Numbered from the stretch's first letter, positions 38,573 to 61,366 are shown. The stretch is 64,000 nucleotides of DNA from Bacilli bacterium (GCA_050953065.1 JBMNLZ010000003.1:365544-429543); one strand, 5' to 3'. Translations and numbers: made by a program. The notes: a model not told the origin generated them from the letters alone.

Positions 38573-38586
38573 CTTGTCCTCCTTTC

Positions 38587-39663: not shown

Positions 39664-39677
39664 TGATCTTCTCCTTT

Positions 39678-49268: not shown

Positions 49269-50336
49269 TTAAGTAAAGTTAGCGATTATATAATTTCCAA
49301 TTTTACTTCTAAAAGGAATTATCTTATTGTTTTCTCTTGTTGGATGAACTCTATTACTTAACATACAAAAAGCAATTTTATTATCTCTATCAATAAATAA
49401 ATTAGTCCCCGTAAAACCAGTATGTAAAATTGTATTAGGACTTGCTAAGTCTCCACATGATGGATAATCACTCTTTAAGATCCACCCTAACCCTCTTTTA
49501 CTACCAACTAAACTAATTCCTTCTTTTTCTTCTACTTGTGGGGTAAAAAGCAAATCAATACTTGCTTTAGATAAAATGCGTCTACCTTTATATACTCCAT
49601 TATTTAAAATCATTTCCATAAAGTTACCAATATCATCTGCTGTTGAAAATACTCCAGCATGTCCTGCAACACCACCTAAAATATAAGCTTTTTCATCATG
49701 AACTTTTCCACGTAATAAATCCTGACAAATAGCATCATTTCTTTTTTCAGTTGGAGCACATCTTTCAGTATTTTTAGGATTATATGTTGTATCTTTCATA
49801 TCAAGTTTTGAAAAAACATATAATTTAGCTGCTCTATCTAAACCCATTCCTGAAACTGTTTCAATTAGTTTCCCCAGCAAAATAAAACCGATATCTGAAT
49901 ATATTATCTTTTCACTTCTTCCTGCTTTAAGTGGTACTTTATAAGCAAAATCAAAAACCTCTTCAGGCTTTGCTAGTGTATTAGCTTTAGGAATATCAGG
50001 TACTAAACCTGAAGTATGAGTCATTAAATCAAAGATAGTAATATCATCGTTTTTAAAATCAGGCAAGTATTTACTAACACTATCATAAAGCCTTATTTTA
50101 CCCGCTTCTAATAATTGCATTAAAAGTGTAGTTGTAGAAACAACTTTCGAAACTGAAGCCATATCATAAATTGTATTAATATAATTTTCTTCCTTTTTAG
50201 GAAGCAACGCTTTATACCCAAAAGCTCCAGTATAACGCCTCTTTCCTGCAATCAAACAATAAGTCGCACCGGGAAAAACACCATCTTTAACAGCTTCTTC
50301 CATCAAATCATTAAACCCAATCATTTTAGAATTCAT
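49269..50336 (-). CDS. beta-lactamase-fold serine hydrolase (AmiE/YbbE-like MurNAc-L-Ala amidase candidate)
   Basis: SxxK motif MASVSKVV and YSD (YxN-like). No signal peptide is present. The ATG at 50336 is preceded by AAGGGGA and overlaps the upstream stop. Confidence 0.78.
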   Translation of the reverse strand: MNSKMIGFNDLMEEAVKDGVFPGATYCLIAGKRRYTGAFGYKALLPKKEENYINTIYDMASVSKVVSTTTLLMQLLEAGKIRLYDSVSKYLPDFKNDDITIFDLMTHTSGLVPDIPKANTLAKPEEVFDFAYKVPLKAGRSEKIIYSDIGFILLGKLIETVSGMGLDRAAKLYVFSKLDMKDTTYNPKNTERCAPTEKRNDAICQDLLRGKVHDEKAYILGGVAGHAGVFSTADDIGNFMEMILNNGVYKGRRILSKASIDLLFTPQVEEKEGISLVGSKRGLGWILKSDYPSCGDLASPNTILHTGFTGTNLFIDRDNKIAFCMLSNRVHPTRENNKIIPFRSKIGNYIIANFT

Positions 50337-52503
50337 AAACTTTCCCCTTAAATCTATTATAAAAATTATCAAATGTGATTTTTTTAATTACATTATCACT
50401 ATAGCCTTTAACACGAAGCCTTTCAATTAAAAGATTAATTTCAGTTACTTTAGAAATCTCTTTTGTATTAGAACTTGGAAAATCATCCAAATAATCCATA
50501 AAGTCTAACCCTAAACATACATTATCAATCCCAAGTGCATTAATAGCATATTCAATATGTTTAATAAACATATCAATACTTTTATCTTCTTTTGAAATGA
50601 AATTTCCAACTAAAGTTAAACCTAATAAACCATCGGCTTCTTTTAATGCTTTTAATTGAGCATCATCTAAATTTCTTTTATGATCACATAGACTTCTAAT
50701 ATTTCCGTGTGAATAAATAATATTTTTATTTGTTAGTTTTAAAACATCAAAAAAACTTTGATAATTTAGATGAGCTAAATCAATTATCATATCAAGTTTT
50801 TCCATTTTTTTAATTAAATCTTTTCCTTTTTCAGTTAAGCCTCTTTCAGGATTGCCCTTTACTCCAGTAGCATAATCATTTTCTTCATTCCATGTTAACA
50901 TTGCATGACGAAAACCTAATTTATATAAAGTATCTAAATCATTTATGCTTTTTAAATTTCTTAACCCTTCAAAACCTAAAATCAATTTAAAATCAACTAA
51001 TAATTTAAAATCAATTTGAGCAAGAGCCTTTTTAGATGCTTCAATTAAATCAAATTCATCAGGCGAATATAGTGTCCAAAGTCCACCTTTAACTGATGTT
51101 TCTGATAATTGTTGCAAGTGAAAATCAAATCTATTTTCAATTCCCATTTTAGCCTTATCATATAAATCATATAAGATATCAGTGTGAGTATCAAAGATAG
51201 GCAAACTTTTTTGATTAAAACTAGATAAAAGTTTATCATAACTTTCTCTTTTAATTGCTAGATTAACGTTATCCTCTTTTACAAAAACAACAGCTGGTCT
51301 AACATGAGAATTATAATTCATAGACATTGAATATCCATATGCTCCAGTTGAATAAACAACTAAAATATCTCCTCTTTTAAAACTAGGCACTTCTACTCCT
51401 TGAGCTATGATATCACCACTCTCGCAACAAGGTCCAACAATATCACATTTAATAGTTTTTAACTCATTCATCTTATTAGCTACATCAACACTATATTTAG
51501 CTTGATATAAAGCAGGCCTAATATTATCATTCATTCCACCATCAACTGGTAAATATATTTTCTTATTATAAGTTTCTTTCAAATCACCTATTGTATAAAG
51601 TGTACTACAAGCATCGCCTACAATACTTCTGCCTGGTTCAATCATTAAAGTATTTAAAGCAATTTTAAATTTATTAGTTAAATCTTCTACTTCTTTTACA
51701 ACTTCTTTTAAAGTTTTTTCCAAATCAATTTCAGTATCTGTTTTTAAATATTTAATTCCAAAGCCTCCACCTAAATTAAGAACCTTCGCCTCAAAGTCAT
51801 ATTTTTCTTTTACATCTTTTAAAAACTCTACCATTGTTTTAGCTGAATTAATAAAAGAATCAGGAGTTGTTATTTGAGAACCAATATGAGCATGAAAACC
51901 ATCTAATTCAATATAAGATGCATTTTTATAAAAGTCAATTATTTTTTCTATTTTTGCCTCATCAAAGATTGACTCTCCAAATTTAGAATCAACAGATGAT
52001 GTTTGAATATATTCATGAGTATGAGCTGAAATTCCAGGGTTTATTCTAAATAAAGTTTTAACTTGTTTTTTGTTGATTCTAGCAATTTTTTCTAATCTTT
52101 CTAACTCTGGAATATTGTCTACAATAATATATTTTACTCCTAATTTAACTGCAAATTCTAATTCTTCATCCGTTTTATTATTTCCATGAAAAACTGCTTT
52201 AGAAAGAGGAAAGTTAGTTTTATGTAAAATATATAAATCTCCATAACTAACACTATCAATCCCAACATTATATTCTAATAAAATATCATTTAGATAACTT
52301 GAAAGAAAAGCTTTAGATGCATAATATATTTCACAATTAAACTTCTTACTTTTAAAGTTATTAATAAAAGTAGATATTTTATTTCTCAAATGCAATTCAT
52401 CAAAAACCATTAAAGGAGTCCCATAAATTCTTGCTAAATCTTTAGCAGATTTTTTACCAAAATATAATGCGTTTCCTTTAACACTCATTCCTAATGTTTT
52501 CAT
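50326..52503 (-). CDS. fusion protein: diaminopimelate decarboxylase (LysA-type, PLP fold III) + M19 membrane-dipeptidase-family domain
   Basis: The N-terminal ~425 aa carry YASKAF (PLP Lys), HAHIGSQ, LGGGFG, EPGRSIVG, CCESGD and GAYGYSM. The C-terminal ~300 aa carry IFDTHTDILYD...LTWNEEN...DLAHLN...SHGNIRSLCDHKRNLDD (M19). The ATG at 52503 has RBS GAGGA; the track start is a GTG. Confidence 0.88.
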   Translation of the reverse strand: MKTLGMSVKGNALYFGKKSAKDLARIYGTPLMVFDELHLRNKISTFINNFKSKKFNCEIYYASKAFLSSYLNDILLEYNVGIDSVSYGDLYILHKTNFPLSKAVFHGNNKTDEELEFAVKLGVKYIIVDNIPELERLEKIARINKKQVKTLFRINPGISAHTHEYIQTSSVDSKFGESIFDEAKIEKIIDFYKNASYIELDGFHAHIGSQITTPDSFINSAKTMVEFLKDVKEKYDFEAKVLNLGGGFGIKYLKTDTEIDLEKTLKEVVKEVEDLTNKFKIALNTLMIEPGRSIVGDACSTLYTIGDLKETYNKKIYLPVDGGMNDNIRPALYQAKYSVDVANKMNELKTIKCDIVGPCCESGDIIAQGVEVPSFKRGDILVVYSTGAYGYSMSMNYNSHVRPAVVFVKEDNVNLAIKRESYDKLLSSFNQKSLPIFDTHTDILYDLYDKAKMGIENRFDFHLQQLSETSVKGGLWTLYSPDEFDLIEASKKALAQIDFKLLVDFKLILGFEGLRNLKSINDLDTLYKLGFRHAMLTWNEENDYATGVKGNPERGLTEKGKDLIKKMEKLDMIIDLAHLNYQSFFDVLKLTNKNIIYSHGNIRSLCDHKRNLDDAQLKALKEADGLLGLTLVGNFISKEDKSIDMFIKHIEYAINALGIDNVCLGLDFMDYLDDFPSSNTKEISKVTEINLLIERLRVKGYSDNVIKKITFDNFYNRFKGKVYEF

Positions 52504-52542
52504 AAGTTTCCTCACTAAAAATTAATTAAACTATCAAATCAT

Positions 52543-52600: not shown

Positions 52601-52717
52601 GATTCTTTACTTAATTTCCCACACTCACATACCAAGTTAAGCTTAAGGCTGCTTCAGTCAAGACCTGACCTGGTTCACTGCCTGATATTGAATGCAGGAA
52701 TCTAAATAAAGAATCCC
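52601..52717 (-). ncRNA. ffs: signal recognition particle RNA, short 4.5S type
   Basis: The minus strand reads ...GTGAACCAGGTCAGGTCTTGACTGAAGCAGCCTTAAGC..., the conserved domain IV. The 5' GGGATTCTTTATTTAGATTCC pairs with the 3' GGGAAATTAAGTAAAGAATC, followed by T6. TGGTATAAT sits 7 nt upstream, at 52725-52733. Confidence 0.85.
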
Positions 52718-52867: not shown

Positions 52868-52902
52868 GAAAAACCACTTCCTTAAAAGAAAGTGGTTTTT
52901 TT
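52868..52902 (-). terminator. terminator after the 1130-aa lipoprotein gene
   Basis: AAAACCACTT/AAGTGGTTTT stem with a 10-nt loop and T/A runs on both sides. Confidence 0.7.
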
Positions 52903-52912
52903 AAGTTAAAAA

Positions 52913-55900
52913 TTATTTTTTAGGAATGCTGTAAGTATCCAGTACAGTACCTGATGCATTAAACATTTGACCAGTAATTTGAGTTGAACTAACTGTAATA
53001 GTTGAAATTGTACTGATATCATTATTGTTAGTTGAGCCACCATATACTTTAGCAGAATATGAACTTGCTGCTGTTGCAATTCTACCACGTGCTCCTATTT
53101 GGTTGGCTGTAATATAAACAGTTCCAACAGAAGCTGTTGAGACAGCACCATTTTTAATTGGTTTGCTTCTTACGTATACATGGTCATCTCCTGATAAGAC
53201 TAAATCAACTCCTAGACTTTCTAAAGTACTTCCATAAATATTATAACAATCACTTGACTTAGCAACTCCACTTGGTGCACTAGCAGTTGACCCGTGGAAA
53301 AATTCTCTATGAGAAAAGGCAATTACAAAATCACTTGGATTATTATTAATTACAGTAGAAAGCCATGATTTTTGAGCATTTCTTCTTGTAGTGTCTAGAA
53401 CTTCTGAGTTTATACCAACAAACAATACATTATTATATTTAAAATAATAAGATGAATTTGAAATACCACTTGCTCCATTTTTAGGATTATTAAACATAGC
53501 ATTATAATAAACATCTGATGTATGTTCAGGATATACACTACCTTGAGCTTTATAATAATCATGGTTTCCTGGAACCGAAGCTAAAAAATAATTTTTAGCA
53601 AATGGAGCTGTTGCTAAATGTTTCCATTGATAATAATCACTTCCATGAGCAGTTAAATCACCTGTGAATAAAACAAAACTTAAACCACTTACCTTTGATT
53701 CAGCTCTTGAAACCAATGAATTAGCTGTACTTAATCTAGAACTTAGTGCAGGATAAGCATGGACGTCTGACATATAGATAAAACTAAATGTTGTAGTTGA
53801 AGCAGTTTTAAAATAATAATCACTTGAAGCACTTGAGCCTATAATTCTATATCTATATTCAGTATTAGCTGTTAAACCTGTAATGTTTACAAGTTTTCTA
53901 AAATAACTTACAGTACCATTATATCCTTGACTGTTTCCATCTGATGTACTTACAAAAGAAGCTGAAGTGCTAGATGGAGCTACTTGAACTTTATTTGCAT
54001 AAGTAGTATCGCTTTTTTTAGTATACTCTAAATATCCTCCACTTGTTGTATGATGCCAACTAATATTCATTTGAGAACTAGCATTTGCACCAGGAGATGC
54101 AAACACTAAACTAGATGTACCAGTAGCTGCTGGCATTGTTCCTCCCGGAGGATTTGATCCACCTGTGCCAATTGTTAGAGTAATTGTTCCAGATCCTTTT
54201 GAAGGATGAGTTACAGTAATTGTTACTGTACCATCTTTTAATGCTGAAATTGTTCCATAAGTTGAAACTGTTGCAACACTTGAATCACTTGATGTAAAGA
54301 CACATTCAAGACGAGAAACACTTGTTCCACCTGAATCTCTTACATAAATTTGGTATCCAGAACCACCCACTGGAACATTTGCACTAGGATCAGCTGTGAT
54401 TGTTAGAGTTCCTGCTGGAGGATTTGTTACTGTTATAGTACATGTTGCTTTTACTGATGTATCGGCAACTGAAGTTGCTGTAATTGTTGCTGTTCCTGCT
54501 GCTTTAGCTGTTACAACACCGTTTGTAACAGTTGCAACTGTTGCATTACTTGTTGTCCATGTAACACTTGTATTACTTGCATTTGTTACTGTGGCTGTTA
54601 ATGTTTTTGTTGCATTAACAAGTAATGAGGCTGTTGTATCTGATAGAGTAATAGTTGGTGTAGGTTGAGCGGTAACTGTCACACTTGCTTGAGCTTGAAT
54701 ACTATTATTTGCATTAAGCTTTGCAATAATGTTTGCTGTTCCAGCTGCTACTGCTGTTACTTTTCCATTACTGTCTACTGTTGCAACACTTGTATTACTA
54801 CTGCTCCATGAAACTGATTTATCAGTTAGGGATGCTGCTACTACTGTTGCTGTTAATGTTTGATTAGATCCAGCCACTAGATTTAATGAAGTAGGATTTA
54901 AAGTAATACTCATTTGATCAGTTACTGTTACCTGATGAGTTGCTTTAATGCTTGCACTTACTATTGAAGTTGCTGTGATTGTTGCTGTACCTACTTTCAT
55001 TCCAGTTACTCTACCATTTACATCTATGGTTGCAACTGTAGAATCACTTGAAGTCCACGTAACTATGTTTGTTGCTCCTGTTGGAGTTGCTGTTGCTGTT
55101 AGAATTATATTTTGTCCATAACTAACTGTTGATGCTCCATTAATTGTAATTCCTGTTGGAAGAGGAATTACAGTTACTGTAAAGTTTGCTTTCTTTTCAG
55201 GATCTCCAACAAGTGATGCTGTAATTTGAACAACACCTCCAGAAACTCCTGTTACCCAGCCTGCTGCATCTACTATTGCAACACTAGTGTTGCTTGAAGC
55301 ATAAGTAAACGTTGCAGGTTCATTAGCTGGAGTATATGTTACATTTAATTTAATTTTATTTCCCTGTAATACTTCATTAGCTCCAGAAAGATTAATTGAA
55401 GTAATTGGGCTAGCTGAAGTTTCAGATTCTTTTACGACTAAAGTAAATGTATTTGAAACAGATGTATCATCTGTTAGAGTTGCTGTGATTGTTACAATTC
55501 CTGTTGCAACACCTGTTACAATTCCAAATTCATTTACTGTTGCTTTTGAATTATCACTACTTGTCCAAGTAATGCCTGTTATATTTCCTTGATTTGGAGT
55601 TACAGTTAAAATAACTGAATCACTAACATTAACAAAACTACTTCCGTTAATTATAAGTGATGTTGGTTTAACTACTACCGCCCCATCTGTTCTTACGTTA
55701 ACAACGATTGTTGCAGAACGAGCCCCATATAAAGCTATGATAGATGTAACACCAGCTGCTTTTGCAGTCAAAACACCATTTGATGTTATTGATGCTACTT
55801 CTCCATTACTAGACATCCAAGAAATAGTTCCATTAACTATTTCTCCACCTAATAAAACTTGTAAAGTAACAGTACTACCTACAGTCAAATTTTGATTCCC

Positions 55901-56305
55901 GTTAACTATTACAAAAGTTTGAGTATTAGGGTCTGGTTTGTTTTCGCCTGGGTTATCATCAATTGGATTATCAGTTGATCCATCATCTATAGCAGTTACT
56001 ATTACAGTTATCTTAATAAAGACTTCTGTATTTAAAACTCCAATTGTTAGTTCAGCTTGACCTGCACTAATTCCACTAATAACTCCATTTGAAACTGTAA
56101 AAATAGCCTCGTTAGAAGAAACATAGTAAAGGGCATTAGTTGATCCTACAACTTTAGGAGCAATTGAGACCATATCTTCTTCCTCAACAGTAATAGTATA
56201 ACTATCAACTGTAATTTTAACTTCTCCACTCCCTAAACTTAAACCTTGACAACCAACTAATAAAATACTAATTAACAAAGTAAAAACAATAAAGATTTTT
56301 TTCAT
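52913..56305 (-). CDS. giant surface lipoprotein: about nine Big_2 domains + purple-acid-phosphatase-like metallophosphoesterase at the C-terminus
   Basis: Lipobox LISILLVGC|QG. Big_2 units (VTWTSSDSTVATIDVNGRVTGMKVGTATITAT and similar) are repeated. The C-terminus has the phosphoesterase motifs DVH, GDLTAHG, GNHD, SHREF and GDDHVY after an FN3-like PAP N-domain. Confidence 0.88.
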   Translation of the reverse strand: MKKIFIVFTLLISILLVGCQGLSLGSGEVKITVDSYTITVEEEDMVSIAPKVVGSTNALYYVSSNEAIFTVSNGVISGISAGQAELTIGVLNTEVFIKITVIVTAIDDGSTDNPIDDNPGENKPDPNTQTFVIVNGNQNLTVGSTVTLQVLLGGEIVNGTISWMSSNGEVASITSNGVLTAKAAGVTSIIALYGARSATIVVNVRTDGAVVVKPTSLIINGSSFVNVSDSVILTVTPNQGNITGITWTSSDNSKATVNEFGIVTGVATGIVTITATLTDDTSVSNTFTLVVKESETSASPITSINLSGANEVLQGNKIKLNVTYTPANEPATFTYASSNTSVAIVDAAGWVTGVSGGVVQITASLVGDPEKKANFTVTVIPLPTGITINGASTVSYGQNIILTATATPTGATNIVTWTSSDSTVATIDVNGRVTGMKVGTATITATSIVSASIKATHQVTVTDQMSITLNPTSLNLVAGSNQTLTATVVAASLTDKSVSWSSSNTSVATVDSNGKVTAVAAGTANIIAKLNANNSIQAQASVTVTAQPTPTITLSDTTASLLVNATKTLTATVTNASNTSVTWTTSNATVATVTNGVVTAKAAGTATITATSVADTSVKATCTITVTNPPAGTLTITADPSANVPVGGSGYQIYVRDSGGTSVSRLECVFTSSDSSVATVSTYGTISALKDGTVTITVTHPSKGSGTITLTIGTGGSNPPGGTMPAATGTSSLVFASPGANASSQMNISWHHTTSGGYLEYTKKSDTTYANKVQVAPSSTSASFVSTSDGNSQGYNGTVSYFRKLVNITGLTANTEYRYRIIGSSASSDYYFKTASTTTFSFIYMSDVHAYPALSSRLSTANSLVSRAESKVSGLSFVLFTGDLTAHGSDYYQWKHLATAPFAKNYFLASVPGNHDYYKAQGSVYPEHTSDVYYNAMFNNPKNGASGISNSSYYFKYNNVLFVGINSEVLDTTRRNAQKSWLSTVINNNPSDFVIAFSHREFFHGSTASAPSGVAKSSDCYNIYGSTLESLGVDLVLSGDDHVYVRSKPIKNGAVSTASVGTVYITANQIGARGRIATAASSYSAKVYGGSTNNNDISTISTITVSSTQITGQMFNASGTVLDTYSIPKK

Positions 56306-56323
56306 TTTTAACTCCTCTAAAAA

Positions 56324-56368
56324 AGCTACTTGTACAACACCTCAATTTTTATGTATTAACAAGTAGCT
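56324..56368 (-). terminator. possible terminator/attenuator hairpin between the GDPD and lipoprotein genes
   Basis: 10-bp stem AGCTACTTGT/ACAAGTAGCT with a long 25-nt loop, followed by T6 on the minus strand just before the next RBS. Confidence 0.4.
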
Positions 56369-56376
56369 GATCTGTT

Positions 56377-57177
56377 TTATCTTTTATACTCTACTACTTT
56401 CCCATCTTTAAAATAAAGGTAATCAGTAGTAATCATATCTACTCCCTTTTTAATAAAAGAGAGAGCCTTATTTTTCTTATTTAAAGTATAGGTATTCACA
56501 ATCAACCCTTTAGCATGGAAACAATCAATTATTCTTTTGTTTAAATGTTTATAATCCATATCCAATGAAATTCTTTTTTCAAAACATTCTTCTTTAAATT
56601 CTTTATATCTTTTTTTAGAAGAACATAAGAATTGTAGTCTTGCATCAGGATACTTAGATCTTATCGCTTTTAACACTTCAAACATTGAAGTCATAAAATA
56701 TGTTTTTTGATACATTTCCTTGCTTTTAACAAAATCAACTAATAACGAAACATTTGACTGATCATTATTATTTAATCCAGTTGTCCACTTAATTTCAATG
56801 ATAGCTTCTACATCATATTTTTTACACAAATCTAAGTATTCATCTAGGCCAGCTATTTTTCCATTAAATAGACAAGCTGGCCCAAGAGATGAACCTCTAT
56901 TTTGTGTTACTATCATTTCTTTTAATTCTGAATAATTTTTTGATTCTGGAGTTGATCCGCTTTTTGGTTCTGTTAATACTCTTTCACCATATGTATCATT
57001 TAAATAAGGATTGTGAAAAATAATAAACTTTTTATCTTTTGTGACTCTAATGTCACACTCTAAAGCTTTCGCTCCACGAGCAATCCCTTCTTCAAATGCT
57101 TCCATAGTATTGGCAACAAAAGCACCACCAGCACCTCGATGACCTACCCAAATAAAGTTATTCTTATTTTTTTTCAT
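56377..57177 (-). CDS. glycerophosphodiester phosphodiesterase (GDPD family), no signal peptide
   Basis: VGHRGAGG...ALECDIRVTKD...FHN are the GDPD catalytic motifs. Confidence 0.87.
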   Translation of the reverse strand: MKKNKNNFIWVGHRGAGGAFVANTMEAFEEGIARGAKALECDIRVTKDKKFIIFHNPYLNDTYGERVLTEPKSGSTPESKNYSELKEMIVTQNRGSSLGPACLFNGKIAGLDEYLDLCKKYDVEAIIEIKWTTGLNNNDQSNVSLLVDFVKSKEMYQKTYFMTSMFEVLKAIRSKYPDARLQFLCSSKKRYKEFKEECFEKRISLDMDYKHLNKRIIDCFHAKGLIVNTYTLNKKNKALSFIKKGVDMITTDYLYFKDGKVVEYKR

Positions 57178-57186
57178 TCAAGTTTC

Positions 57187-60100
57187 TTATGCAACTACCG
57201 TAACACTTACTGTACCTACATTACCACCAGTCTTGTGTGTAACAGTAATTGTTACTGGACCACCAGTTGCTAATGTAGTAATATTTCCTGTATCAGAAAT
57301 TGTTAAAATACCAGTGTTGCTAGAAACAATATTACATGCTAAACGGCTAACAGCTTTTTGATTAGTATCCCAGATAAAGACTTGATAATATCCTGCTGTA
57401 CCACCTAAGGCTAGAGAAATTGTTTCTAATGATGGATTTGCATAACTACCACCACCACCTGATTGAGGAACTTGAACCTTAACTGTTAAGGCTCCTGCTC
57501 CAGGAGTAATAGTTAACTCAATTGTAGCTTTTACACTAGGGTTTGCTACTAAAGTAGCTGTTATTATAATTGTACCTGCACTTACTCCTGTTACTAGACC
57601 AGTTTCATTAACTGTAGCAATCCATGCTTTTCCTTCTTCACCTGACCAAGTAACTTGATGTCCACCCACTATTGATAACTGAGAAGTAGTACCAGCAGCA
57701 AACGAAGTATATTGTGCTGATATAGTGATTGATGATGGAGTACCACTACCGCCACCATAAGACCCTACTGCAGTCCATTTTGCATAATACATTGCGGCTG
57801 GAGCAGTTCCTGCTGCAATAACTGATACCGGACTACCTGTTAAGCCTGAATTATCATACCATCCTTCAAAAACATAACCTTCTCTAAATGGTTCTTTTAA
57901 GACTGCAACTTGTCCATGTGGATAAGATGTAGTTTGATAAGTTGTAGCAGCGCTAACTCTTGCTGAACCACTTTCATAATATCTTAAAGTTGGAGTTGGA
58001 ATACAAGAACGGAAGCTATTAGCTAAAGTTGCATTAGCAAATGTAGAACTATTAACATTTTGAGTTCCATAGAAATATCCATCTAAGATAAATCCAAATG
58101 CACTTCTACCATGGAAAACTCCTGCATTTTCAGTTGTAATTGGAGAATATCCACTAGATGCAGCACCTTCTTTTGTACGATATAATTCGTGAACAGTTTC
58201 AAGTAAATTCTTATATTTTGATTGATATGGTTCAGTTCCGAAGAATCCACCCGTTACACTTGTAATCTTCTTAGTTGTAGCATCAGTTGCAATACTGTTC
58301 CAGAAGAATTGAGAATATCCATCAATTTTTGAATATGATACAACTGTTCCTGATACCCAATTATACCATGCTTGTGGGTCAACAGCATTTGCCTTAAAGG
58401 CATCCCAAGTTGTTTTGTGTAGATTTGAAGCAACTAATGATGAACTTAGTAAATTGTTATCTTTCAAATATTTATAGAAGTCTTGCATAAAGATTTCTGG
58501 TAAATTTGAAACTCCATCAATATAATATTCTCCAGCATAATCTCCTGATGGTACAGTAGTTACAGTACCTGATGACCAACTCCATGAACCACCATTTAAT
58601 GTATAATTTAATGTATAGTTAGCTGGATTAACTGTAATTTGACATGTTGCTTTTAAGTTTGTATTAACAGCAGCTGTTGCTGTAATTACTGCTTCACCTT
58701 GAGCAACCGCTGTTACAAGTCCTGATGAAGAAACTGTTGCAACACTTGCATTACTTGTTGACCAAGTAACATTTGTATTACTTGAATAACTAACTGTTGC
58801 AGTTAATTGTAAAGTTGCATCTATTGCTAAAGTTCCAGATGTTGGTGCTACTGTAATTGTTGGAGCTGGATTAACTGTAATTTGACATGTTGCTGTTAAG
58901 CTTGGATCTCCAACTGAAGTTGCTGTAATTGTTACACTACCTTGAGCAACACCTGTTACAACACCTGTTGATGAGTTAACTGTTGCTTTGCTTGTATCAC
59001 CTGATGAATAAGTTACAGAAGTATTACTTAAGTTTTGTACTGTTGCAGTTACTGTAACTGTTTCATTTTGGTTAACTGTTGCTGTAGTTGGTGTCATTGT
59101 AATTGTTGGAGCTGGATTAACTGTAATTTGACATGTTGCTTTTAAGTCTGGATCCACATCAGCTGTAGCTGTGATTGTTACATTACCTTGAGCAACACCT
59201 GTTACAACACCTGTTGATGAGTTAACTGTTGCGATTGAAGTATCACTTGATGAATAAGCTACAACTGTATTGCTTGAATTATGTACTGTAGCTGTTACTT
59301 TTACAGTCTTACCTGCAACAATTGTCGCTGAAGTTGGATCAATTGTAATTGTTGGATAAGGCACGACTGTAACTTCTACTGTTGCTGTAAAGTTTGGATC
59401 TCCATTTGCTGTTGCTGTAATTGTAGCAGTACCTTCAGCAACACCTGTTATCTTACCAGTTTGATCAACTGTTGCGTATGCTGCAGCACTTGTTGACCAA
59501 GTAACTGTAGTATCTGTTAGGTTTGTAACAGTTGCAGTAATTGTTTTTTCTTGAGTAACTGAAATTGTAATTGCTGATTCAGAAAGTGTAATTGTTGGTC
59601 TTGCAGCAACTGTGATATCAACTGTTGCTACTAAACTAGCATTAACATCAGCTGTAGCAATAATAGTTGCAGTTCCTGCAGAAACACCTGTTACAACTCC
59701 TGTTTCTGCATTAACTGTTGCTACTAAAACGTTACTAGATGAATAACTTACACCTGTATTACTTGAATTATGTACTGTACCAGTTACTGTAATTGTATCT
59801 CCAACATATAAAGTTTCAGCTGTAGCCGAAGCTTCAATTGAAGGTCCTGGTGTAACTGTGATTTCTTTATATCCTATTATTTGAGAATTTGATTTTGAAA
59901 CAGCTGTAATCGTTACTGTACCTTCTGTAACACCTGTTACAACACCAGCACTTGTTATAGTAGCCCTACTTGTTTTAAGTGACACCCATGATACCTCATT
60001 AGATGCTCCTTCAGGGCTAGCCACAGCTGTTAATTCTATTGTTGAACCGACTTGAACTGTACTAGGTCCATTAATTGTAATTGATGTTACAGCAGGTGCA

Positions 60101-61191
60101 ACATAGTTAACTGTTACTTCATAAGTATTTGAAATTGAACCATCTTCTTCTAAAGAAACTGTAATTGTAGCAACCCCTGCTGCAAGACCTGTTACTTTAC
60201 CCGTTTGATCAACTGATACGATTTCATCTTGTTCAGTTCCCCAAACTAAAGTTCCAGTTGCACCACTTGGTTGAATTTCTGCAGTAAGGTTAATACTCTT
60301 ACCAGTATCTACACTAGTTGGACCTGAAATTGTAATCCCTGATGGATTAATTATTTCTGATACAACTTGAATTGTTTTTGTTTTTATTACACCTGGGTAA
60401 TCTACTAAAGAAACTAAAATAATTGTTGAACCAACAGAAACACCTGTTACAACTCCTGTTTCTGCATCAACTGTTGCAATTGCATTATTACTACTACTAA
60501 ATGCAGCTGCGAAATCTCCTGCAACATCTGCTGAATAAGTAAGTTGAATAGACTCACCAATTGCTACTACATTTTCGCCATATACTTCAAGTGCAGTCGG
60601 TACAACTATACTTCCTTCTGGAACAACATTAACTGTTACTTCATCATCAGCACCACCAGCTGCTGCTTTAACTGTTGTTGTTCCTTCTTTTAAGGCTGTA
60701 AACTTCCCTGCAGCTGTGATAGTTCCTACAGCTTGATTGCTAGAAGTCCACTTTAACGTGTCTGTATAAGCAACATTGCTTGTAACAGCGAAGTTATGTG
60801 TATCTCCTACTTCCAAAGTTATTTCTCTAGCCCCGTTTATCGTAAGCGTTAAAACAACAGGCGCTGTTACTGAAACAACTAATGTACAAGCCTTTCCTTG
60901 AACATTATTCAACCTTGCAGTAATTGTTGTACTACCAACACCTACTGCCTTTAAATAATAATCATCGCCTACTTGTTCGATAATTACTACTGCTTCATTC
61001 CCCGATGCATATGTTATGCTCGGTTTTTCAGCTAAATTAGTAATTGTTGGAAAAAGTTTTTCCGTTGCATCAACTTCTAATCTATAATTAGTTTTGTTGA
61101 AGGAAAAAGTTATTGGATTCGTATTTTGAAAACATCCAACCAATAAAAATAAGCCCAAAGCTAAAAGCAAAAATTTTCTCATTTTTCTCAT
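57187..61191 (-). CDS. giant surface lipoprotein: about 11 Big_2 domains, an uncharacterised ~260-aa insert with a Listeria-Bacteroides-type repeat, and more Ig-like domains
   Basis: Lipobox LGLFLLVGC|F. Many Big_2 units are present. The insert is ...YVFEGWYDNSGLTGSPVS...YYAKWT (Flg_new-like). There is no LPXTG and no C-terminal TM. Confidence 0.88.
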   Translation of the reverse strand: MRKMRKFLLLALGLFLLVGCFQNTNPITFSFNKTNYRLEVDATEKLFPTITNLAEKPSITYASGNEAVVIIEQVGDDYYLKAVGVGSTTITARLNNVQGKACTLVVSVTAPVVLTLTINGAREITLEVGDTHNFAVTSNVAYTDTLKWTSSNQAVGTITAAGKFTALKEGTTTVKAAAGGADDEVTVNVVPEGSIVVPTALEVYGENVVAIGESIQLTYSADVAGDFAAAFSSSNNAIATVDAETGVVTGVSVGSTIILVSLVDYPGVIKTKTIQVVSEIINPSGITISGPTSVDTGKSINLTAEIQPSGATGTLVWGTEQDEIVSVDQTGKVTGLAAGVATITVSLEEDGSISNTYEVTVNYVAPAVTSITINGPSTVQVGSTIELTAVASPEGASNEVSWVSLKTSRATITSAGVVTGVTEGTVTITAVSKSNSQIIGYKEITVTPGPSIEASATAETLYVGDTITVTGTVHNSSNTGVSYSSSNVLVATVNAETGVVTGVSAGTATIIATADVNASLVATVDITVAARPTITLSESAITISVTQEKTITATVTNLTDTTVTWSTSAAAYATVDQTGKITGVAEGTATITATANGDPNFTATVEVTVVPYPTITIDPTSATIVAGKTVKVTATVHNSSNTVVAYSSSDTSIATVNSSTGVVTGVAQGNVTITATADVDPDLKATCQITVNPAPTITMTPTTATVNQNETVTVTATVQNLSNTSVTYSSGDTSKATVNSSTGVVTGVAQGSVTITATSVGDPSLTATCQITVNPAPTITVAPTSGTLAIDATLQLTATVSYSSNTNVTWSTSNASVATVSSSGLVTAVAQGEAVITATAAVNTNLKATCQITVNPANYTLNYTLNGGSWSWSSGTVTTVPSGDYAGEYYIDGVSNLPEIFMQDFYKYLKDNNLLSSSLVASNLHKTTWDAFKANAVDPQAWYNWVSGTVVSYSKIDGYSQFFWNSIATDATTKKITSVTGGFFGTEPYQSKYKNLLETVHELYRTKEGAASSGYSPITTENAGVFHGRSAFGFILDGYFYGTQNVNSSTFANATLANSFRSCIPTPTLRYYESGSARVSAATTYQTTSYPHGQVAVLKEPFREGYVFEGWYDNSGLTGSPVSVIAAGTAPAAMYYAKWTAVGSYGGGSGTPSSITISAQYTSFAAGTTSQLSIVGGHQVTWSGEEGKAWIATVNETGLVTGVSAGTIIITATLVANPSVKATIELTITPGAGALTVKVQVPQSGGGGSYANPSLETISLALGGTAGYYQVFIWDTNQKAVSRLACNIVSSNTGILTISDTGNITTLATGGPVTITVTHKTGGNVGTVSVTVVA
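58622..59350. repeat. three in-frame tandem DNA repeats (243 and 246 nt) inside the 1334-aa gene
   Basis: The identical 29-mer GCTGGATTAACTGTAATTTGACATGTTGC starts at 58622, 58865 and 59111. Copies 2 and 3 also share a perfect 48-nt run (ACCTTGAGCAACACCTGTTACAACACCTGTTGATGAGTTAACTGTTGC). Confidence 0.85.
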
Positions 61192-61339: not shown

Positions 61340-61366
61340 AAAAATGCCTCTTTTTTAAGAAGCATT
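61340..61366 (-). terminator. possible terminator after dusB
   Basis: AATGCTTC/GAGGCATT stem (one G-U pair) followed by T5 on the minus strand. Confidence 0.45.

What the first reader, a model, noticed from the sequence alone, without database searches (positions are those of the whole stretch)
52913..61191. Surface phosphoester-scavenging module: Big_2-stalked PAP-like phosphoesterase, GDPD and a 1334-aa Big_2 lipoprotein
Three co-directional genes are involved.
1. The 1334-aa lipoprotein has about 11 Big_2 domains and an unknown ~260-aa insert.
2. A GDPD-family phosphodiesterase follows 9 nt downstream.
3. After a hairpin comes a 1130-aa lipoprotein. Its about nine Big_2 domains hold a purple-acid-phosphatase-type metallophosphoesterase (DVH / GDLTAHG / GNHD / GDDHVY) far from the membrane.

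B. subtilis degrades teichoic acid with the GDPD GlpQ plus the phosphodiesterase PhoD. This module sits beside a peptidoglycan-salvage region, so it could strip poly(glycerol-phosphate) or nucleic acids from neighbouring cells.

A catalytic domain on a ~9-domain Ig stalk anchored only by a lipid is unusual.
Basis: partly seen in the sequence, partly recalled or inferred. Interest (0 to 1): 0.6.

Follow-up and report, generated by a model that had tools for sequence, protein, structure and literature searches.

The report
Stalked surface phosphoesterases of a wall-less bacterium
A small bacterium without a cell wall of its own carries dozens of lipid-anchored stalk proteins tipped with enzymes that cut other bacteria's walls, and the three genes examined here appear to be the branch of that toolkit that cuts phosphate ester bonds.

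Summary
There are three co-directional genes on the minus strand. The first is a 1334-aa Big_2 lipoprotein. A 266-aa GDPD follows 9 nt later. After a terminator-like hairpin comes a 1130-aa Big_2 lipoprotein ending in a Pur_ac_phosph_N + Metallophos cassette.

- **The stalked enzyme is not unusual here.** This 1.55-Mb genome gave no match to PBP, SEDS or MraY families. It has 46 Big_2 ORFs (8.9% of the DNA). In 40 scanned, payloads include Amidase_2, NlpC/P60, CHAP, NAGPA, GDPD, GH3 and GHL10.
- **The kind is already in print.** Ig/FN3/NAGPA-fused surface calcineurin-like phosphoesterases are described (ShfP radiation, PMC11488536).
- **The cassette is PAP-fold but not PAP-site.** Plant PAPs match at TM 0.76. 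The dimetal site is the classical type: DxH in motif I, Ala at the PAP Tyr, Asp for one His.
- **The GDPD is probably cytoplasmic.** It lies in frame behind the first lipoprotein (TAA-GAA-ACT-TGA-ATG). Its closest paralogs are C-terminal tips of Big_2 stalks. It is conserved stand-alone (74-92% identity; dN/dS 0.16), most likely by gene fission.

Most likely the locus forages phosphoesters from other bacteria's envelope debris in digester sludge. Substrates are inferred, not shown.

The parts
57187..61191 (-). Gene 1: a 1334-aa lipoprotein with a Big_2 stalk, a nested unknown domain, a further Big_2 domain and a terminal adapter-like domain. It has no enzyme payload.
   Evidence: ORF and translation. 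Pfam finds 10 Big_2 stretches and my own HMM finds 12. The L032 ortholog is 62% identical over 1334 aligned positions. dN/dS against L032 is 0.42.
61132..61191 (-). Lipoprotein signal peptide of gene 1, ending in the lipobox LLVGC.
   Evidence: Sequence. Lgt and LspA matches are present in the genome.
58621..59450 (-). Tandem array of 246-nt units (3.4 copies, 77% matches), equal to 82-aa Big_2 units of the stalk.
   Evidence: Tandem Repeats Finder, score 841.
57937..58536 (-). Unknown ~200-aa domain (residues 886-1085) nested inside one Flg_new / List_Bact_rpt repeat. Conserved motifs are LPEIFMQDFY, DGYSQFFW, GGFFGTEPYKSKY and GFILDGYFYGTQ.
   Evidence: Local phmmer found 5 paralogous copies in other giant Flg_new proteins of the genome. 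Four of them, plus the L032 ortholog, are aligned with gene 1 in A2. There were 26 database relatives at E<=1e-5, 10 of which carry Amidase_2. No Pfam match, no credible PDB match, and the model reached only pLDDT 48.6.
57766..57939 (-). C-terminal half of the Flg_new / List_Bact_rpt repeat that encloses the unknown domain (residues 1085-1142).
   Evidence: Pfam Flg_new 24.3 bits at residues 1085-1137. NCBIfam TIGR02543 30.7 bits at residues 1101-1142.
57196..57417 (-). Terminal adapter-like Ig domain of gene 1 (residues 1259-1332). It is the domain type that directly precedes the payload in the sister proteins.
   Evidence: phmmer with the adapter of gene 3 gives E 1.2e-8.
57178..57189 (-). 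Junction TAA-GAA-ACT-TGA. Gene 1 and the GDPD are in the same frame and are separated only by two stops and two codons.
   Evidence: A DNA contig of run X2 covers 55685-58650 with 0 differences. L032 has TAA-TAA-AAT-TGA-AAG-AAT-GAA-TTT, also in frame.
56377..57177 (-). Gene 2: a 266-aa GDPD-family phosphodiesterase with no signal peptide and an intact catalytic set (H13 R14 E40 D42 H55 E128 K130).
   Evidence: Pfam 100.7 bits. Those residues are invariant in alignment A1 and were checked. Stand-alone orthologs are 92, 81 and 74% identical at 262-265 aa. dN/dS is 0.157. It is the only one of the genome's 3 GDPD matches without a stalk.
56318..56368 (-). Terminator-like stem-loop with a U-run between the GDPD and gene 3. 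A GAGGAG ribosome-binding site follows it.
   Evidence: -17.6 kcal/mol, z -2.67. The L032 counterpart folds at -17.0 kcal/mol, z -3.14, with a conserved stem. The consensus scan missed it because its loop exceeds 8 nt.
52913..56305 (-). Gene 3: a 1130-aa lipoprotein made of a Big_2 stalk, an adapter domain, a Gly-rich linker and a phosphoesterase cassette.
   Evidence: P0004 is 73% identical in the cassette, is 1117 aa long and has the same architecture. The L032 ortholog's N-terminus is 61% identical.
54422..56218 (-). Stalk of gene 3 (residues ~30-628): 7 Big_2 stretches by Pfam, 8 by my own HMM.
54158..54421 (-). Adapter domain (residues 629-716, 'GYQIYVRD..VSRLEC..TVTH').
   Evidence: Local phmmer finds it once or twice, directly before the payload, in at least 12 paralogs of the genome.
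53804..54103 (-). Pur_ac_phosph_N (fn3-like) domain of the cassette, residues 735-834.
   Evidence: Pfam 30.0 bits against a cut-off of 30. The model has pLDDT 91.9 and superposes on both domains of plant PAPs.
53174..53782 (-). Calcineurin-like metallophosphoesterase domain, residues 842-1044. Ligand positions are D847, H849, D883, N914, H999, D1040 and H1042.
   Evidence: Pfam 57.5 bits. Column counts over 141 aligned sequences are.
52916..53173 (-). C-terminal beta-strand part of the cassette, residues 1045-1130.
   Evidence: It is covered by homologs to the last residue. It is modelled as strands with pLDDT of about 90-98.
52869..52900 (-). Intrinsic terminator after gene 3.
   Evidence: 14-pair stem followed by a T-run.
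61343..61366 (-). Terminator after the upstream dus gene, so the locus starts its own transcription unit.
   Evidence: The AT-rich spacer and the AAGGAG site before gene 1 are shown.

Best explanation
The locus belongs to a genome-wide modular family of surface proteins in a probably wall-less bacterium found in digesters and sludge.

**The shared design**
Each family member has a lipoprotein signal, about 7-9 Big_2 Ig domains, one or two adapter domains, a Gly-rich linker and a swappable C-terminal enzyme.

**Gene 3 (shown)**
Gene 3 is the member whose payload is a two-domain phosphoesterase with a purple-acid-phosphatase fold. Its dimetal site is the classical calcineurin-like type (D, H, D, N, H, D, H) and lacks the PAP tyrosine.

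**Genes 1 and 2 (inferred)**
Genes 1 and 2 are most likely the two halves of a former stalk-GDPD member. I put fission over the reverse, a fusion, at about 65:35.
- Gene 1 remains as a payload-less stalk. Its nested domain probably binds a substrate or another cell.
- The GDPD has been kept under purifying selection as a signal-less protein. It is therefore most likely cytoplasmic.

**Proposed mechanism (inferred, not shown)**
1. The stalks hold enzymes some tens of nanometres from the membrane, against envelope debris or cells of other bacteria.
2. The tip of gene 3 hydrolyses phosphoester bonds of extracellular organophosphates. Candidates are teichoic-acid or wall-glycopolymer fragments, including the phosphomonoesters left by the NAGPA-type phosphodiester glycosidases of sister proteins. 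This releases phosphate and dephosphorylated sugars or glycerol.
3. Imported glycerophosphodiesters are then split in the cytoplasm by the GDPD into glycerol-3-phosphate and an alcohol.
For: **The family**
- 46 ORFs carry 249 Big_2 domains. That is 46,331 aa, or 8.9% of the genome, and 33 of the 46 have a strict lipobox.
- In the 40 ORFs I scanned, payloads were Amidase_2 (7), NAGPA (4 stalked, plus the NAGPA + phosphoesterase chain L096), NlpC/P60 (2), CHAP, Peptidase_C39_2, GDPD (2), GH3, GHL10 (3), GDSL (2) and Cthe_2159.
- The adapter domain sits directly before the payload in at least 12 paralogs.

**Wall-less host**
- The genome is 94% complete in 3 contigs. It gives no match to Transpeptidase, FtsW/RodA or MraY families, and only one Mur_ligase_M match.

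**Gene 3**
- The model has pLDDT 91.9. The best folds are plant PAPs (TM 0.76) and then PhoD (TM 0.59).
- D847, D883, H999 and H1042 are invariant in 141 of 141 aligned sequences. N914 is present in 130 of 141.
- One chain in this genome (L096, 1604 aa) joins NAGPA to the same kind of cassette. Relatives have matches to the cassette in open frames of similar length, 1525-1623 aa. Their domain content was not checked.

**The split**
- Gene 1 and the GDPD are in the same frame, with two stops between them.
- The two closest own-genome relatives of the GDPD (59-60% identity) are C-terminal tips of stalk proteins.
- The 5 closest 'longer' relatives (58-60% identity) are fused forms, and all 20 are longer proteins in which the GDPD is one part.
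- Stand-alone orthologs are 92, 81 and 74% identical and all start right at the domain edge.
- L032 has the same three-gene order and the same in-frame junction.
- dN/dS is 0.157 for the GDPD against 0.42 and 0.22 for its neighbours.
- Composition has shifted. Charged residues make up 0.28-0.30 of the 4 stand-alone forms against 0.18-0.20 of the 2 fused ones.
- It is the only stalk-less GDPD among the genome's 3 GDPD matches.

**Habitat**
- 20 run rows from 13 studies hold part of the stretch. They are labelled anaerobic digester, sludge, wastewater or bioreactor.

**Precedents**
- GlpQ and PhoD act as teichoic-acid hydrolases (passages of PMC7086022).
- ShfP-type surface calcineurin-like enzymes are fused to Ig, FN3 and NAGPA domains (PMC11488536 section 7).
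- Free-living Acholeplasma assimilates dead bacterial biomass (abstract of PMC4628116).
Against: - No substrate has been tested for any of the three proteins. The cassette could equally be a nucleotidase, a nuclease or a lipid head-group esterase.
- The GDPD tree places the stand-alone clade as sister to the fused clade, not nested inside it. The deeper nodes are unresolved and the root is a midpoint. The direction, fission or fusion, is therefore not proven.
- Four other Big_2 ORFs also end in an adapter-like domain with no payload. Gene 1 could be complete as it stands.
- 'Wall-less' rests on four Pfam families in a genome that is 94% complete.
- 'Cytoplasmic' rests on the absence of a signal peptide and on composition.
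- The stalk length and its purpose are inferred.
- The contigs from RNA libraries that bridge the gene junctions could come from contaminating DNA, and contigs cannot show single transcripts.
- The terminator-like hairpin argues against tight co-expression of gene 3 with genes 1 and 2.
Confidence: 0.6

Rival explanations
1. The three genes form one dedicated, co-regulated surface module. In it the GDPD and the PAP-like enzyme strip poly(glycerol-phosphate) teichoic acid together, as GlpQ and PhoD do in B. subtilis.
For: - The gene order is conserved in L032.
- Contigs from RNA libraries bridge both gene junctions: X16 at 57085-57379 and X14 at 56199-56461.
- GlpQ and PhoD are a known precedent.
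- The best PDB sequence matches of the GDPD include 832-848-aa chains labelled 'GP-PDE domain-containing protein | ORF58'. I recall these to be phage tail proteins. No call tested that.
Against: - The GDPD has no signal peptide. It is conserved in that form in four lineages, and its composition resembles that of a cytoplasmic protein.
- A conserved terminator-like hairpin precedes gene 3.
- L032 is a close relative, so the shared order may simply be inherited.
- Both large genes belong to a 46-member family scattered over the genome.
Confidence: 0.2
2. The cassette of gene 3 is a nucleic-acid or nucleotide phosphoesterase. Its job would be to scavenge extracellular DNA, RNA or nucleotides, and it would not act on wall polymers.
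For: - Calcineurin-like enzymes act on nucleic acids and nucleotides among other substrates (PMC11488536 section 7).
- One Foldseek hit is a diphosphonucleotide phosphatase (3zk4).
- Wall-less bacteria depend on nucleotide salvage. An earlier scan note, e1-360806, describes a nuclease-importer operon in this same genome.
Against: - No nuclease or nucleotidase family matched.
- The sister payloads are overwhelmingly wall-directed.
- A cassette of the same kind is fused to NAGPA, a sugar-phosphodiester glycosidase, in L096.
- The genome already has a dedicated nuclease system, according to the unchecked note e1-360806.
Confidence: 0.2
3. The stalk proteins are mainly adhesins or variable surface antigens, like the variable lipoproteins of mycoplasmas. 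The enzyme-like tips would then serve to grip ligands instead of turning them over.
For: - Gene 1 has no payload, evolves fast (dN/dS 0.42) and contains a 246-nt tandem array.
- Big_2 domains occur in adhesins such as intimin.
Against: - The catalytic and metal-binding residues of the cassette and of the GDPD are intact and conserved.
- Both enzyme parts are under purifying selection where this could be measured.
Confidence: 0.1
4. The split between gene 1 and the GDPD is a recent pseudogenisation or an assembly error of a single 1600-aa gene.
For: The two ORFs are in the same frame and only 12 nt apart, including the stop codon of gene 1.
Against: - There are two separate stops here and three in L032.
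- The DNA contig of run X2 is identical across the junction.
- Stand-alone orthologs exist in three other protein clusters.
- dN/dS is 0.157.
- The linker sequence is unrelated to the linker of the fused paralogs.
Confidence: 0.03

Closest known systems
[quoted passage not shown]
   Same: - Both are secreted or membrane-anchored calcineurin-like phosphoesterases joined to several Ig-like domains.
- The paper lists fusions to an FN3 domain that maps to Pur_ac_phosph_N, and fusions to NAGPA. Both are seen here.
[quoted passage not shown]
   Different: [quoted passage not shown] Here the anchor is a lipid, the cassette is C-terminal, and an adapter plus linker is shared with non-phosphoesterase paralogs.
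- The host here is probably wall-less, so its own wall cannot be the substrate.
- Direct sequence kinship to ShfP was not tested, because I had no ShfP sequence.
B. subtilis teichoic-acid hydrolases GlpQ (GDPD, exo-acting) and PhoD (calcineurin-like with an FN3 domain, endo-acting) (Myers et al. 2016, as cited in PMC7086022; passages read)
   Same: - Both pair a GDPD with a two-domain fn3 + metallophosphoesterase enzyme.
- PhoD is the second-best group of fold matches, after the plant PAPs (2yeq, TM 0.59).
   Different: - GlpQ is secreted, whereas this GDPD has no signal peptide.
- No PhoD or PhoD_N Pfam match was found for gene 3.
- Those enzymes recycle the cell's own wall during phosphate starvation. 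This organism appears to have no wall of its own.
Plant purple acid phosphatases (kidney bean 4dhl / 6hwr, sweet potato 1xzw)
   Same: - Both share the two-domain fold (TM 0.76-0.77, 17% identity).
- The profile match is E 1.4e-20.
- Five of the seven ligand positions carry the same residue.
   Different: - Tyr167 aligns with Ala886.
- Motif I is DxH, not DxG.
- His323 aligns with Asp1040.
- A Fe(III)-tyrosinate 'purple' site is therefore not expected.
Cytoplasmic glycerophosphodiesterase UgpQ of E. coli (recalled, not from any call)
   Same: It is a small, signal-less GDPD that hydrolyses imported glycerophosphodiesters. This is the role I propose for gene 2.
   Different: - Sequence similarity is only at family level. 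NCBIfam PRK09454 scores 83 bits against a cut-off of 264.
- The nearest kin of gene 2 are extracellular tips.
PDB chains labelled 'GP-PDE domain-containing protein | ORF58' (9euf, 9eul, 9f49)
   Same: A GDPD domain forms part of an 832-848-aa protein (E 7e-13 to 8e-14 against gene 2). This resembles the stalk-GDPD paralogs of this genome.
   Different: - That these chains are phage tail proteins acting on teichoic acid is recalled, not tested.
- The alignment covers two short stretches only.

Membership tests
Calcineurin-like metallophosphoesterase superfamily (PF00149) | Five motifs that provide the dimetal ligands: DxH, GD, GNH(D/E), H and GxxH. | tested here: met
   Pfam scores 57.5 bits against a cut-off of 21.5. 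D847, H849, D883, N914, H999, D1040 and H1042 are all present. Four of these positions are invariant in 141 of 141 aligned sequences.
Purple acid phosphatase | A two-domain fold: an fn3-like N-terminal domain followed by a metallophosphoesterase domain. | tested here: met
   Pur_ac_phosph_N scores 30.0 bits, equal to the cut-off. The model has pLDDT 91.9. Foldseek gives TM 0.76 to 1xzw and 4dhl over about 435 columns.
Purple acid phosphatase | The seven PAP ligands, including the chromophore Tyr of GDxxY and DxG in motif I. | tested here: not met
   In the profile alignment to kidney bean PAP, Tyr aligns with Ala886, DLG with DVH, and the first His of GHVH with Asp1040. At the Tyr column the family shows A 50, D 36, K 19, E 10 and S 8 as its five commonest residues, none of them Tyr.
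Purple acid phosphatase | An Fe(III)-containing centre, purple colour and an acid pH optimum. | not testable with these tools
   This needs purified protein.
ShfP-type cell-surface calcineurin-like phosphoesterases (PMC11488536) | An exported calcineurin-like domain fused to Ig, FN3 (Pur_ac_phosph_N), NAGPA or other adhesion domains. | tested here: met
   Gene 3 has a lipoprotein signal, Big_2 domains, Pur_ac_phosph_N and Metallophos. The paralog L096 adds NAGPA. The architecture list is taken from section 7 of the paper.
ShfP-type cell-surface calcineurin-like phosphoesterases (PMC11488536) | Placement of the catalytic domain inside that radiation by sequence or phylogeny. | not tested
PhoD-like phosphatase | A match to the PhoD / PhoD_N models. 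| tested here: not met
   Gene 3 gave no PhoD or PhoD_N match at E<=0.01. The fold match to 2yeq is weaker than to PAPs (TM 0.59).
GDPD family (PF03009) | A TIM-barrel GDPD domain with the catalytic residues HR..E.D..H..E.K. | tested here: met
   Pfam scores 100.7 bits over profile positions 1-241 of 244. H13, R14, E40, D42, H55, E128 and K130 are invariant in A1. That these are the catalytic residues is recalled, not from a call.
Secreted GlpQ-type teichoic-acid hydrolase | Export, by a signal peptide or by fusion to an exported protein. | tested here: not met
   The protein starts MKKNKNNFIWVGHRG, with the catalytic HRG at residues 13-15 and no hydrophobic segment before it. The NCBIfam GlpQ equivalogs score far below their cut-offs.
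Bacterial lipoprotein | A lipobox with Cys after a hydrophobic signal, plus Lgt and LspA in the genome. | tested here: met
   LLVGC is present in both large proteins. Lgt gives 2 matches and LspA gives 1. Actual lipidation was not tested.
Peptidoglycan-less ('wall-less') Bacilli | Absence of PBP transpeptidase, SEDS polymerase and MraY. | tested here: met
   There are 0 matches to PF00905, PF01098 and PF00953. The controls match in 10 to 12 of 14 genomes. The genome is 93.9% complete. The same-genus genome G001 also has no PF00905 match.

The most novel reading that the evidence does not exclude
A bacterium that has lost its own cell wall spends about 9% of its 1.55-Mb genome on some 40 lipid-anchored Ig stalks with a common adapter and interchangeable tips.

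- The tips include amidases, NlpC/P60, CHAP, NAGPA, GDPD, a PAP-fold phosphoesterase, GH3 and GHL10.
- Together they would form a reach-out apparatus that dismantles the peptidoglycan and teichoic-acid envelope of other bacteria, living or dead, at a distance from its own unprotected membrane.
- The locus studied here would be the phosphoester branch of that apparatus.
- It would also show the design evolving: one tip (the GDPD) was cut off its stalk and moved into the cytoplasm to finish off imported glycerophosphodiesters.
Probability: 0.4. Interest if true: 0.7.

Novelty: new variant of a known kind. Interest (0 to 1): 0.5.

Why it matters
**For the three genes alone**, the result is deflationary. 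The stalked phosphoesterase is an ordinary member of a described class of Ig-fused surface calcineurin-like enzymes, and it is not a true purple acid phosphatase.

**Two points reach further.**
1. The locus is a window onto a modular stalk-plus-tip enzyme family in a peptidoglycan-less bacterium from digesters and sludge. The family gives a concrete gene-level mechanism for how free-living wall-less Bacilli could live on bacterial necromass. That behaviour has been seen by isotope probing for Acholeplasma (PMC4628116, abstract). It is also testable with recombinant tips.
2. The in-frame pair of stalk and GDPD is a clean natural example of a domain changing compartment by gene fission or fusion. 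Intact fused paralogs in the same genome serve as controls.

If the NAGPA-plus-phosphoesterase pairing reflects a two-step attack on sugar-phosphodiester linkages, it would point to enzymes that detach or dephosphorylate wall glycopolymers.

Tried and rejected
- **Locus scans that found nothing.** The genome-contig scan with the cassette found no relatives. The metagenome scan with the single GDPD protein also found none. A repeat with alignment A1 worked.
- **The nested domain of gene 1 stays unidentified.**
  - The AlphaFold model from a 6-sequence alignment reached only pLDDT 48.6, so I ran no fold search on it.
  - The ESM Atlas gave no usable hit.
  - PDB searches gave nothing for the single sequence. 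With the profile, the only hit was a non-credible E 0.083 match to a GST.
- **Whole-protein PDB search of gene 3** returned only Ig-repeat proteins. The cassette alone gave only E ~0.01 to wheat PAP. The profile search and the fold search were needed.
- **Mis-set threshold.** One search used E<=1e-30, so no Big_2 match was counted. Only the rough first-look candidate numbers are usable: G000 257, G001 126, the others 6-79. I draw no firm conclusion from them.
- **Shine-Dalgarno test.** The GDPD has no GGAG/GAGG/AGGA core upstream, here or in L032. Only 446 of 799 ORFs of at least 250 aa have one with my crude start calls, so this is inconclusive.
- **Other split tips.** Among Big_2 ORFs, only this pair has a short in-frame gap to a signal-less enzyme.
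- **Read laying.** All four runs are contigs. Uncovered parts, depth differences and the many 'joints' between Big_2 repeats are uninterpretable, so I use only the bridging pieces.
- **Wall loss versus Big_2 load.** I looked for a link across relatives. No clear pattern appeared outside the window's own genus, and I make no claim.
- **Unused tools.** Complex prediction was not used. The insert and the GDPD have no binding claim that a pass would change.
- **Literature.** Five searches returned no paper that describes stalked wall hydrolases in wall-less bacteria. The library is open-access only, so this is weak evidence of absence.

Full report
**1. What is at the coordinates**

The window has low G+C (about 0.26-0.36 outside the rRNA operon). 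It lies in a 1,554,579-bp genome of 3 contigs with 29.5% G+C. Three minus-strand ORFs fill the finding:
- Gene 1: 57187..61191, 1334 aa.
- Gene 2: 56377..57177, 266 aa.
- Gene 3: 52913..56305, 1130 aa.

A terminator follows the upstream dus gene and another follows gene 3.
- Gene 1 has 10 Big_2 stretches plus one Listeria-Bacteroides repeat.
- Gene 2 matches GDPD at 100.7 bits.
- Gene 3 has 7 Big_2 stretches, Pur_ac_phosph_N at exactly the gathering score (30.0 bits) and Metallophos at 57.5 bits.

Both large proteins begin with a lipobox (LLVGC). Lgt and LspA are encoded elsewhere in the genome. The 9-nt spacing and the hairpin are as described.

**2. The stalk design is the house style of this genome**

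A Pfam search of the whole genome returned 150 scored Big_2 matches out of 257 candidates. With an HMM built from 23 of them I found 46 ORFs carrying 249 Big_2 domains. These ORFs total 46,331 aa, which is 8.9% of the DNA. 33 of the 46 have a strict lipobox, and several more have near-lipobox sequences.

I scanned 40 ORFs against Pfam. Most are Big_2 ORFs. The rest are Flg_new-rich or cassette-bearing relatives. The C-terminal or accompanying enzymes were:

| Payload | Loci |
|---|---|
| Amidase_2 | L077, L078, L079, L084, L089, L090, L105 |
| NAGPA phosphodiester glycosidase | L080, L083, L087, L088 |
| NlpC/P60 | L076, L098 |
| CHAP | L081 |
| Peptidase_C39_2 | L082 |
| GDPD | L085, L091 |
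| GH3 | L095 |
| GHL10 | L098, L099, L107 |
| GDSL esterases | L109, L110 |
| Cthe_2159 | L092 |
| Solute-binding domain | L115 |

An 88-aa 'adapter' Ig domain (gene 3 residues 629-716) recurs once or twice immediately before the payload in at least 12 paralogs of about 900-1250 aa. Gene 3 is thus one member of a modular family with this order:
1. lipid anchor
2. about 7-9 Big_2 domains
3. adapter
4. Gly-rich linker
5. tip enzyme

**3. The host appears to have no wall of its own**

The genome is 93.9% complete. It gives no match to Transpeptidase (PF00905), FtsW/RodA (PF01098) or MraY (PF00953). The same searches match in 10-12 of 14 control genomes. The single Mur_ligase_M match lies in a 428-aa frame. 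I suspect it is a folylpolyglutamate-type ligase, but that is untested.

Among 40 relatives, PBP matches are present in 11 of 24 genomes of the same family and in 16 of 16 of the sister family. This patchy pattern fits the multiple independent peptidoglycan losses reported for orders related to Mycoplasmatales (passages of PMC10868615). I was not given the taxon name and do not assign one.

Public runs that hold the stretch are labelled anaerobic digester, sludge, wastewater or bioreactor (20 rows, 13 studies).

**4. The phosphoesterase cassette of gene 3**

Searched alone against 1.84 billion representative proteins, the 416-aa cassette has 3253 relatives at E<=1e-3 and 143 at E<=1e-30. The usual layout is a signal peptide followed directly by the cassette, then C-terminal Big_2, Big_5, PKD, dockerin, Flg_new or T9SS domains (23 of the 150 listed hits were scanned). 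A few relatives have the cassette at the C-terminus. One is P0004 (73% identity, 1117 aa, same architecture).

The cassette occurs in 37 of 41 related genomes searched, counting the window's own genome, and is often present in several copies. This genome also has two other versions:
- A 69%-identical unstalked copy with an N-terminal signal and a C-terminal hydrophobic anchor (L097).
- A 1604-aa chain that joins NAGPA to a more distant cassette (L096).

The AlphaFold model built on 36 sequences is confident (pLDDT 91.9). It superposes on both domains of plant purple acid phosphatases (TM 0.76, 17% identity), then on PhoD (TM 0.59), and then on mammalian PAPs, SMPDL3, GpdQ and Rv0805.

The active site is not the PAP one. 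In a profile alignment to kidney bean PAP:
- Motif I reads DVH against DLG.
- The chromophore Tyr of GDLSY aligns with Ala886.
- The first His of GHVH aligns with Asp1040.

Across 141 aligned sequences (the query and 140 hits), D847, D883, H999 and H1042 are invariant. N914 is N in 130 and D in 11. Position 849 is H in 95 and Q in 46. Position 1040 is H in 69, D in 44 and N in 28.

The refutation criterion 'lacks metal ligands' is therefore not met. The enzyme looks competent, but it is a PAP-fold enzyme with a classical calcineurin-like site. Substrate specificity cannot be read from this.

**5. The GDPD is a tip without its stalk**

Several observations bear on this.

- *Frame.* Gene 1 ends TAA and is followed by GAA ACT TGA and then the GDPD's ATG, all in one frame.
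- *Paralogs.* The two closest relatives of the GDPD in this genome (59-60% identity) are the C-terminal domains of lipoproteins L085 (979 aa, 7 Big_2 + adapter + linker + GDPD) and L091 (799 aa). An alignment shows that the last domain of gene 1 corresponds to the adapter that precedes the GDPD in L085.
- *Database relatives.* All 20 'longer' relatives at E<=1e-20 are longer proteins in which the GDPD is one part, at no more than 60% identity. The 5 closest carry it at their C-terminus.
- *Conservation of the stand-alone form.* Three protein clusters of 262-265 aa are 92, 81 and 74% identical, and each begins a few residues before FIWVGHRG.
- *Locus L032.* This metagenome locus carries the 81% ortholog in the same setting:
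  - a 1320-aa ortholog of gene 1 (62% identity);
  - then TAA TAA AAT TGA AAG AAT GAA TTT, again in frame;
  - then the GDPD;
  - then a 77-nt spacer with the same hairpin;
  - then the start of a gene 3 ortholog (61% identity).
  The contig lengths also suggest that a gene 1 ortholog (P0192) shares a 24,275-nt contig with the 74% GDPD (P0176). I could not inspect that contig.
- *Selection.* Against L032, dN/dS is 0.157 for the GDPD, 0.42 for gene 1 and 0.22 for the start of gene 3. This is one pair, by Nei-Gojobori counting, with dS of 0.7-1.1.
- *Composition.* The 4 stand-alone forms are richer in charged residues (0.28-0.30 against 0.18-0.20) and poorer in Ser+Thr (0.11-0.12 against 0.18-0.21) than the 2 fused tips.
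- *Uniqueness.* It is the only one of the genome's three GDPD matches that has no stalk.
- *Assembly check.* A DNA contig of run X2 covers 55685-58650 without a single difference. An assembly error is therefore unlikely, although that run may not be independent of the source.

In the tree, the stand-alone clade is sister to a clade of stalk-fused and T9SS-exported forms. Support is 100/99 for the 13-row clade and 89/73 for the fused group. The deeper nodes are open and the root is a midpoint. I therefore favour fission of a stalk-GDPD gene over the reverse (about 65:35), but the direction is not proven. Either way, the protein made today lacks an export signal and is under purifying selection. 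It is most likely a cytoplasmic glycerophosphodiesterase.

**6. Gene 1**

Without its tip, gene 1 consists of a stalk, a nested domain, one further Big_2 domain and an adapter-like end.

The 'insert' is a ~200-aa domain (residues 886-1085) placed inside one Listeria-Bacteroides repeat. It has five paralogous copies in giant Flg_new proteins of this genome. It has 26 database relatives at E<=1e-5, of which 10 also carry Amidase_2.

It has no Pfam, PDB or Atlas match, and my model of it failed. I take it to be a binding module for wall material. That rests only on the company it keeps.

The stalk contains a 246-nt tandem array and evolves fast.

**7. Transcription**

A stem-loop with a U-run lies between the GDPD and gene 3. 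It is conserved in L032, with one A-U to G-U change. A strong GAGGAG site follows it. I found no convincing promoter between the two genes.

In metatranscriptome-library contigs, one piece bridges the junction of gene 1 and the GDPD (X16, 57085-57379). Another bridges the GDPD, the hairpin and the start of gene 3 (X14, 56199-56461). Pieces also lie inside all three genes in a second study (X17).

These are contigs, not reads. They may include DNA carry-over and they cannot show single transcripts. They are compatible with expression and with some read-through, and no more than that. Co-regulation remains open.

**8. How it most likely works**

*Shown:* the architecture, the intact catalytic residues, the family context, the missing wall-synthesis genes, and the conservation of the split.

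*Inferred:* the tips work on other bacteria's envelope material. Three arguments support this:
- The sister tips form the classical toolkit for Gram-positive walls: amidase, endopeptidases, glycosidases, teichoic-acid-type phosphodiesterases and sugar-phosphodiester glycosidases.
- The host has no such wall.
- The window's neighbouring genes encode hexosaminidase, GHL10, deacetylase, acetyltransferases, a DAP-decarboxylase/dipeptidase fusion and an importer.

For gene 3, I propose hydrolysis of phosphomono- or diesters on teichoic-acid or wall-glycopolymer fragments. The NAGPA-cassette fusion in L096 suggests a two-step route: the glycosidase uncovers a phosphomonoester, and the phosphoesterase then removes it. 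That step is speculation.

The cytoplasmic GDPD would split imported glycerophosphodiesters.

The precedents are:
- GlpQ and PhoD (passages of PMC7086022).
- ShfP (PMC11488536).
- Isotope-probing evidence that free-living Acholeplasma rapidly assimilates dead bacterial cells (abstract of PMC4628116).

**9. Comparison and novelty**

As a protein, gene 3 falls within an architecture class already in print: surface calcineurin-like phosphoesterases fused to Ig, FN3/Pur_ac_phosph_N and NAGPA domains. It fails the active-site test for true PAPs and the model test for PhoD.

Three things go beyond what I found described:
- the modular, adapter-linked family of stalk and tip in a peptidoglycan-less genome;
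- its scale;
- the in-frame pair of stalk and GDPD.

Five literature searches returned no paper describing stalked wall hydrolases in wall-less bacteria. The library is open-access only, and I read passages, not whole papers.

This scan has itself noted a wall-degrading gene string with a Big_2 lipoprotein in Acholeplasma laidlawii (note e1-2654128). That note is unchecked by me. The general idea was therefore found before, on other DNA.

**10. Verdict**

The locus is a new variant of a known kind. Interest is moderate (0.5). The single locus is largely ordinary. The genome-wide apparatus it belongs to, and the relocated GDPD, deserve an experimental look.

Noticed in passing
window 52609..52704 (-): The bacterial small SRP RNA gene (Rfam RF00169, 46.1 bits against a gathering score of 40) lies between gene 3's terminator and the lysA-M19 gene. 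It separates the locus from the salvage genes.
   Followed up: no
window 50326..52515 (-): A 729-aa fusion of a diaminopimelate/ornithine-type PLP decarboxylase (Orn_Arg_deC_N + Orn_DAP_Arg_deC) with an M19 membrane dipeptidase. In a genome without wall synthesis, this could make lysine from scavenged DAP-containing peptides.
   Followed up: no
window 37058..42770 (-): An ABC importer with two oddities. Its solute-binding protein is 1030 aa, with the SBP domain only at residues ~650-935. One permease is fused to DUF975.
   Followed up: no
G000:C1:80377-85191 (L096): A 1604-aa chain joins NAGPA (114.5 bits) to Pur_ac_phosph_N + Metallophos. Matches to the cassette lie in open frames of 1525-1623 aa in G001, G007, G022 and G024. 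Their domain content was not checked. This suggests that the glycosidase and the phosphoesterase act in one pathway.
   Followed up: partly
G000:C2:470595-472619 (L097): An unstalked copy of the cassette, 69% identical to gene 3's. It has an N-terminal signal, an acidic linker and a C-terminal hydrophobic anchor. The same enzyme is thus presented in two ways.
   Followed up: partly
G000:C2:24079-27636 and G000:C3:565492-569073: Two Amidase_2 stalk genes (1185 and 1193 aa) have identical first 32 residues and identical Pfam coordinates. The second lies near a contig end. This is either a recent duplication or an assembly repeat.
   Followed up: no
G000:C2:287359-293216: An 1827-aa ORF is followed 2 nt later by a 123-aa ORF that still carries a Big_2 domain. 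It is probably a frameshift-split surface gene.
   Followed up: no
G000:C2:151600-152403: A 267-aa signal-less ORF lies 26 nt downstream of the stalk-GDPD paralog L091. It begins MRKLGICLSGGGGRGAYQIG. By recall, this glycine-rich start resembles patatin-like phospholipases. Not tested.
   Followed up: no
L032 1..3857: In the related metagenome contig, the gene upstream of the gene 1 ortholog is not dus. It is another 957-aa Big_2 protein, preceded by an IS110-family transposase. The left border of the locus is therefore not conserved.
   Followed up: partly
relatives G001-G040: Transpeptidase (PBP) matches are present in 11 of 24 genomes of the window's family and in 16 of 16 of the sister family. 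Wall loss is patchy within the family.
   Followed up: partly
window 54396..54668 (+): A 90-aa plus-strand ORF lies inside gene 3. It is rich in V, A and T and lies antisense to the Big_2 repeats. It is most likely an artefact of the repeat composition.
   Followed up: no
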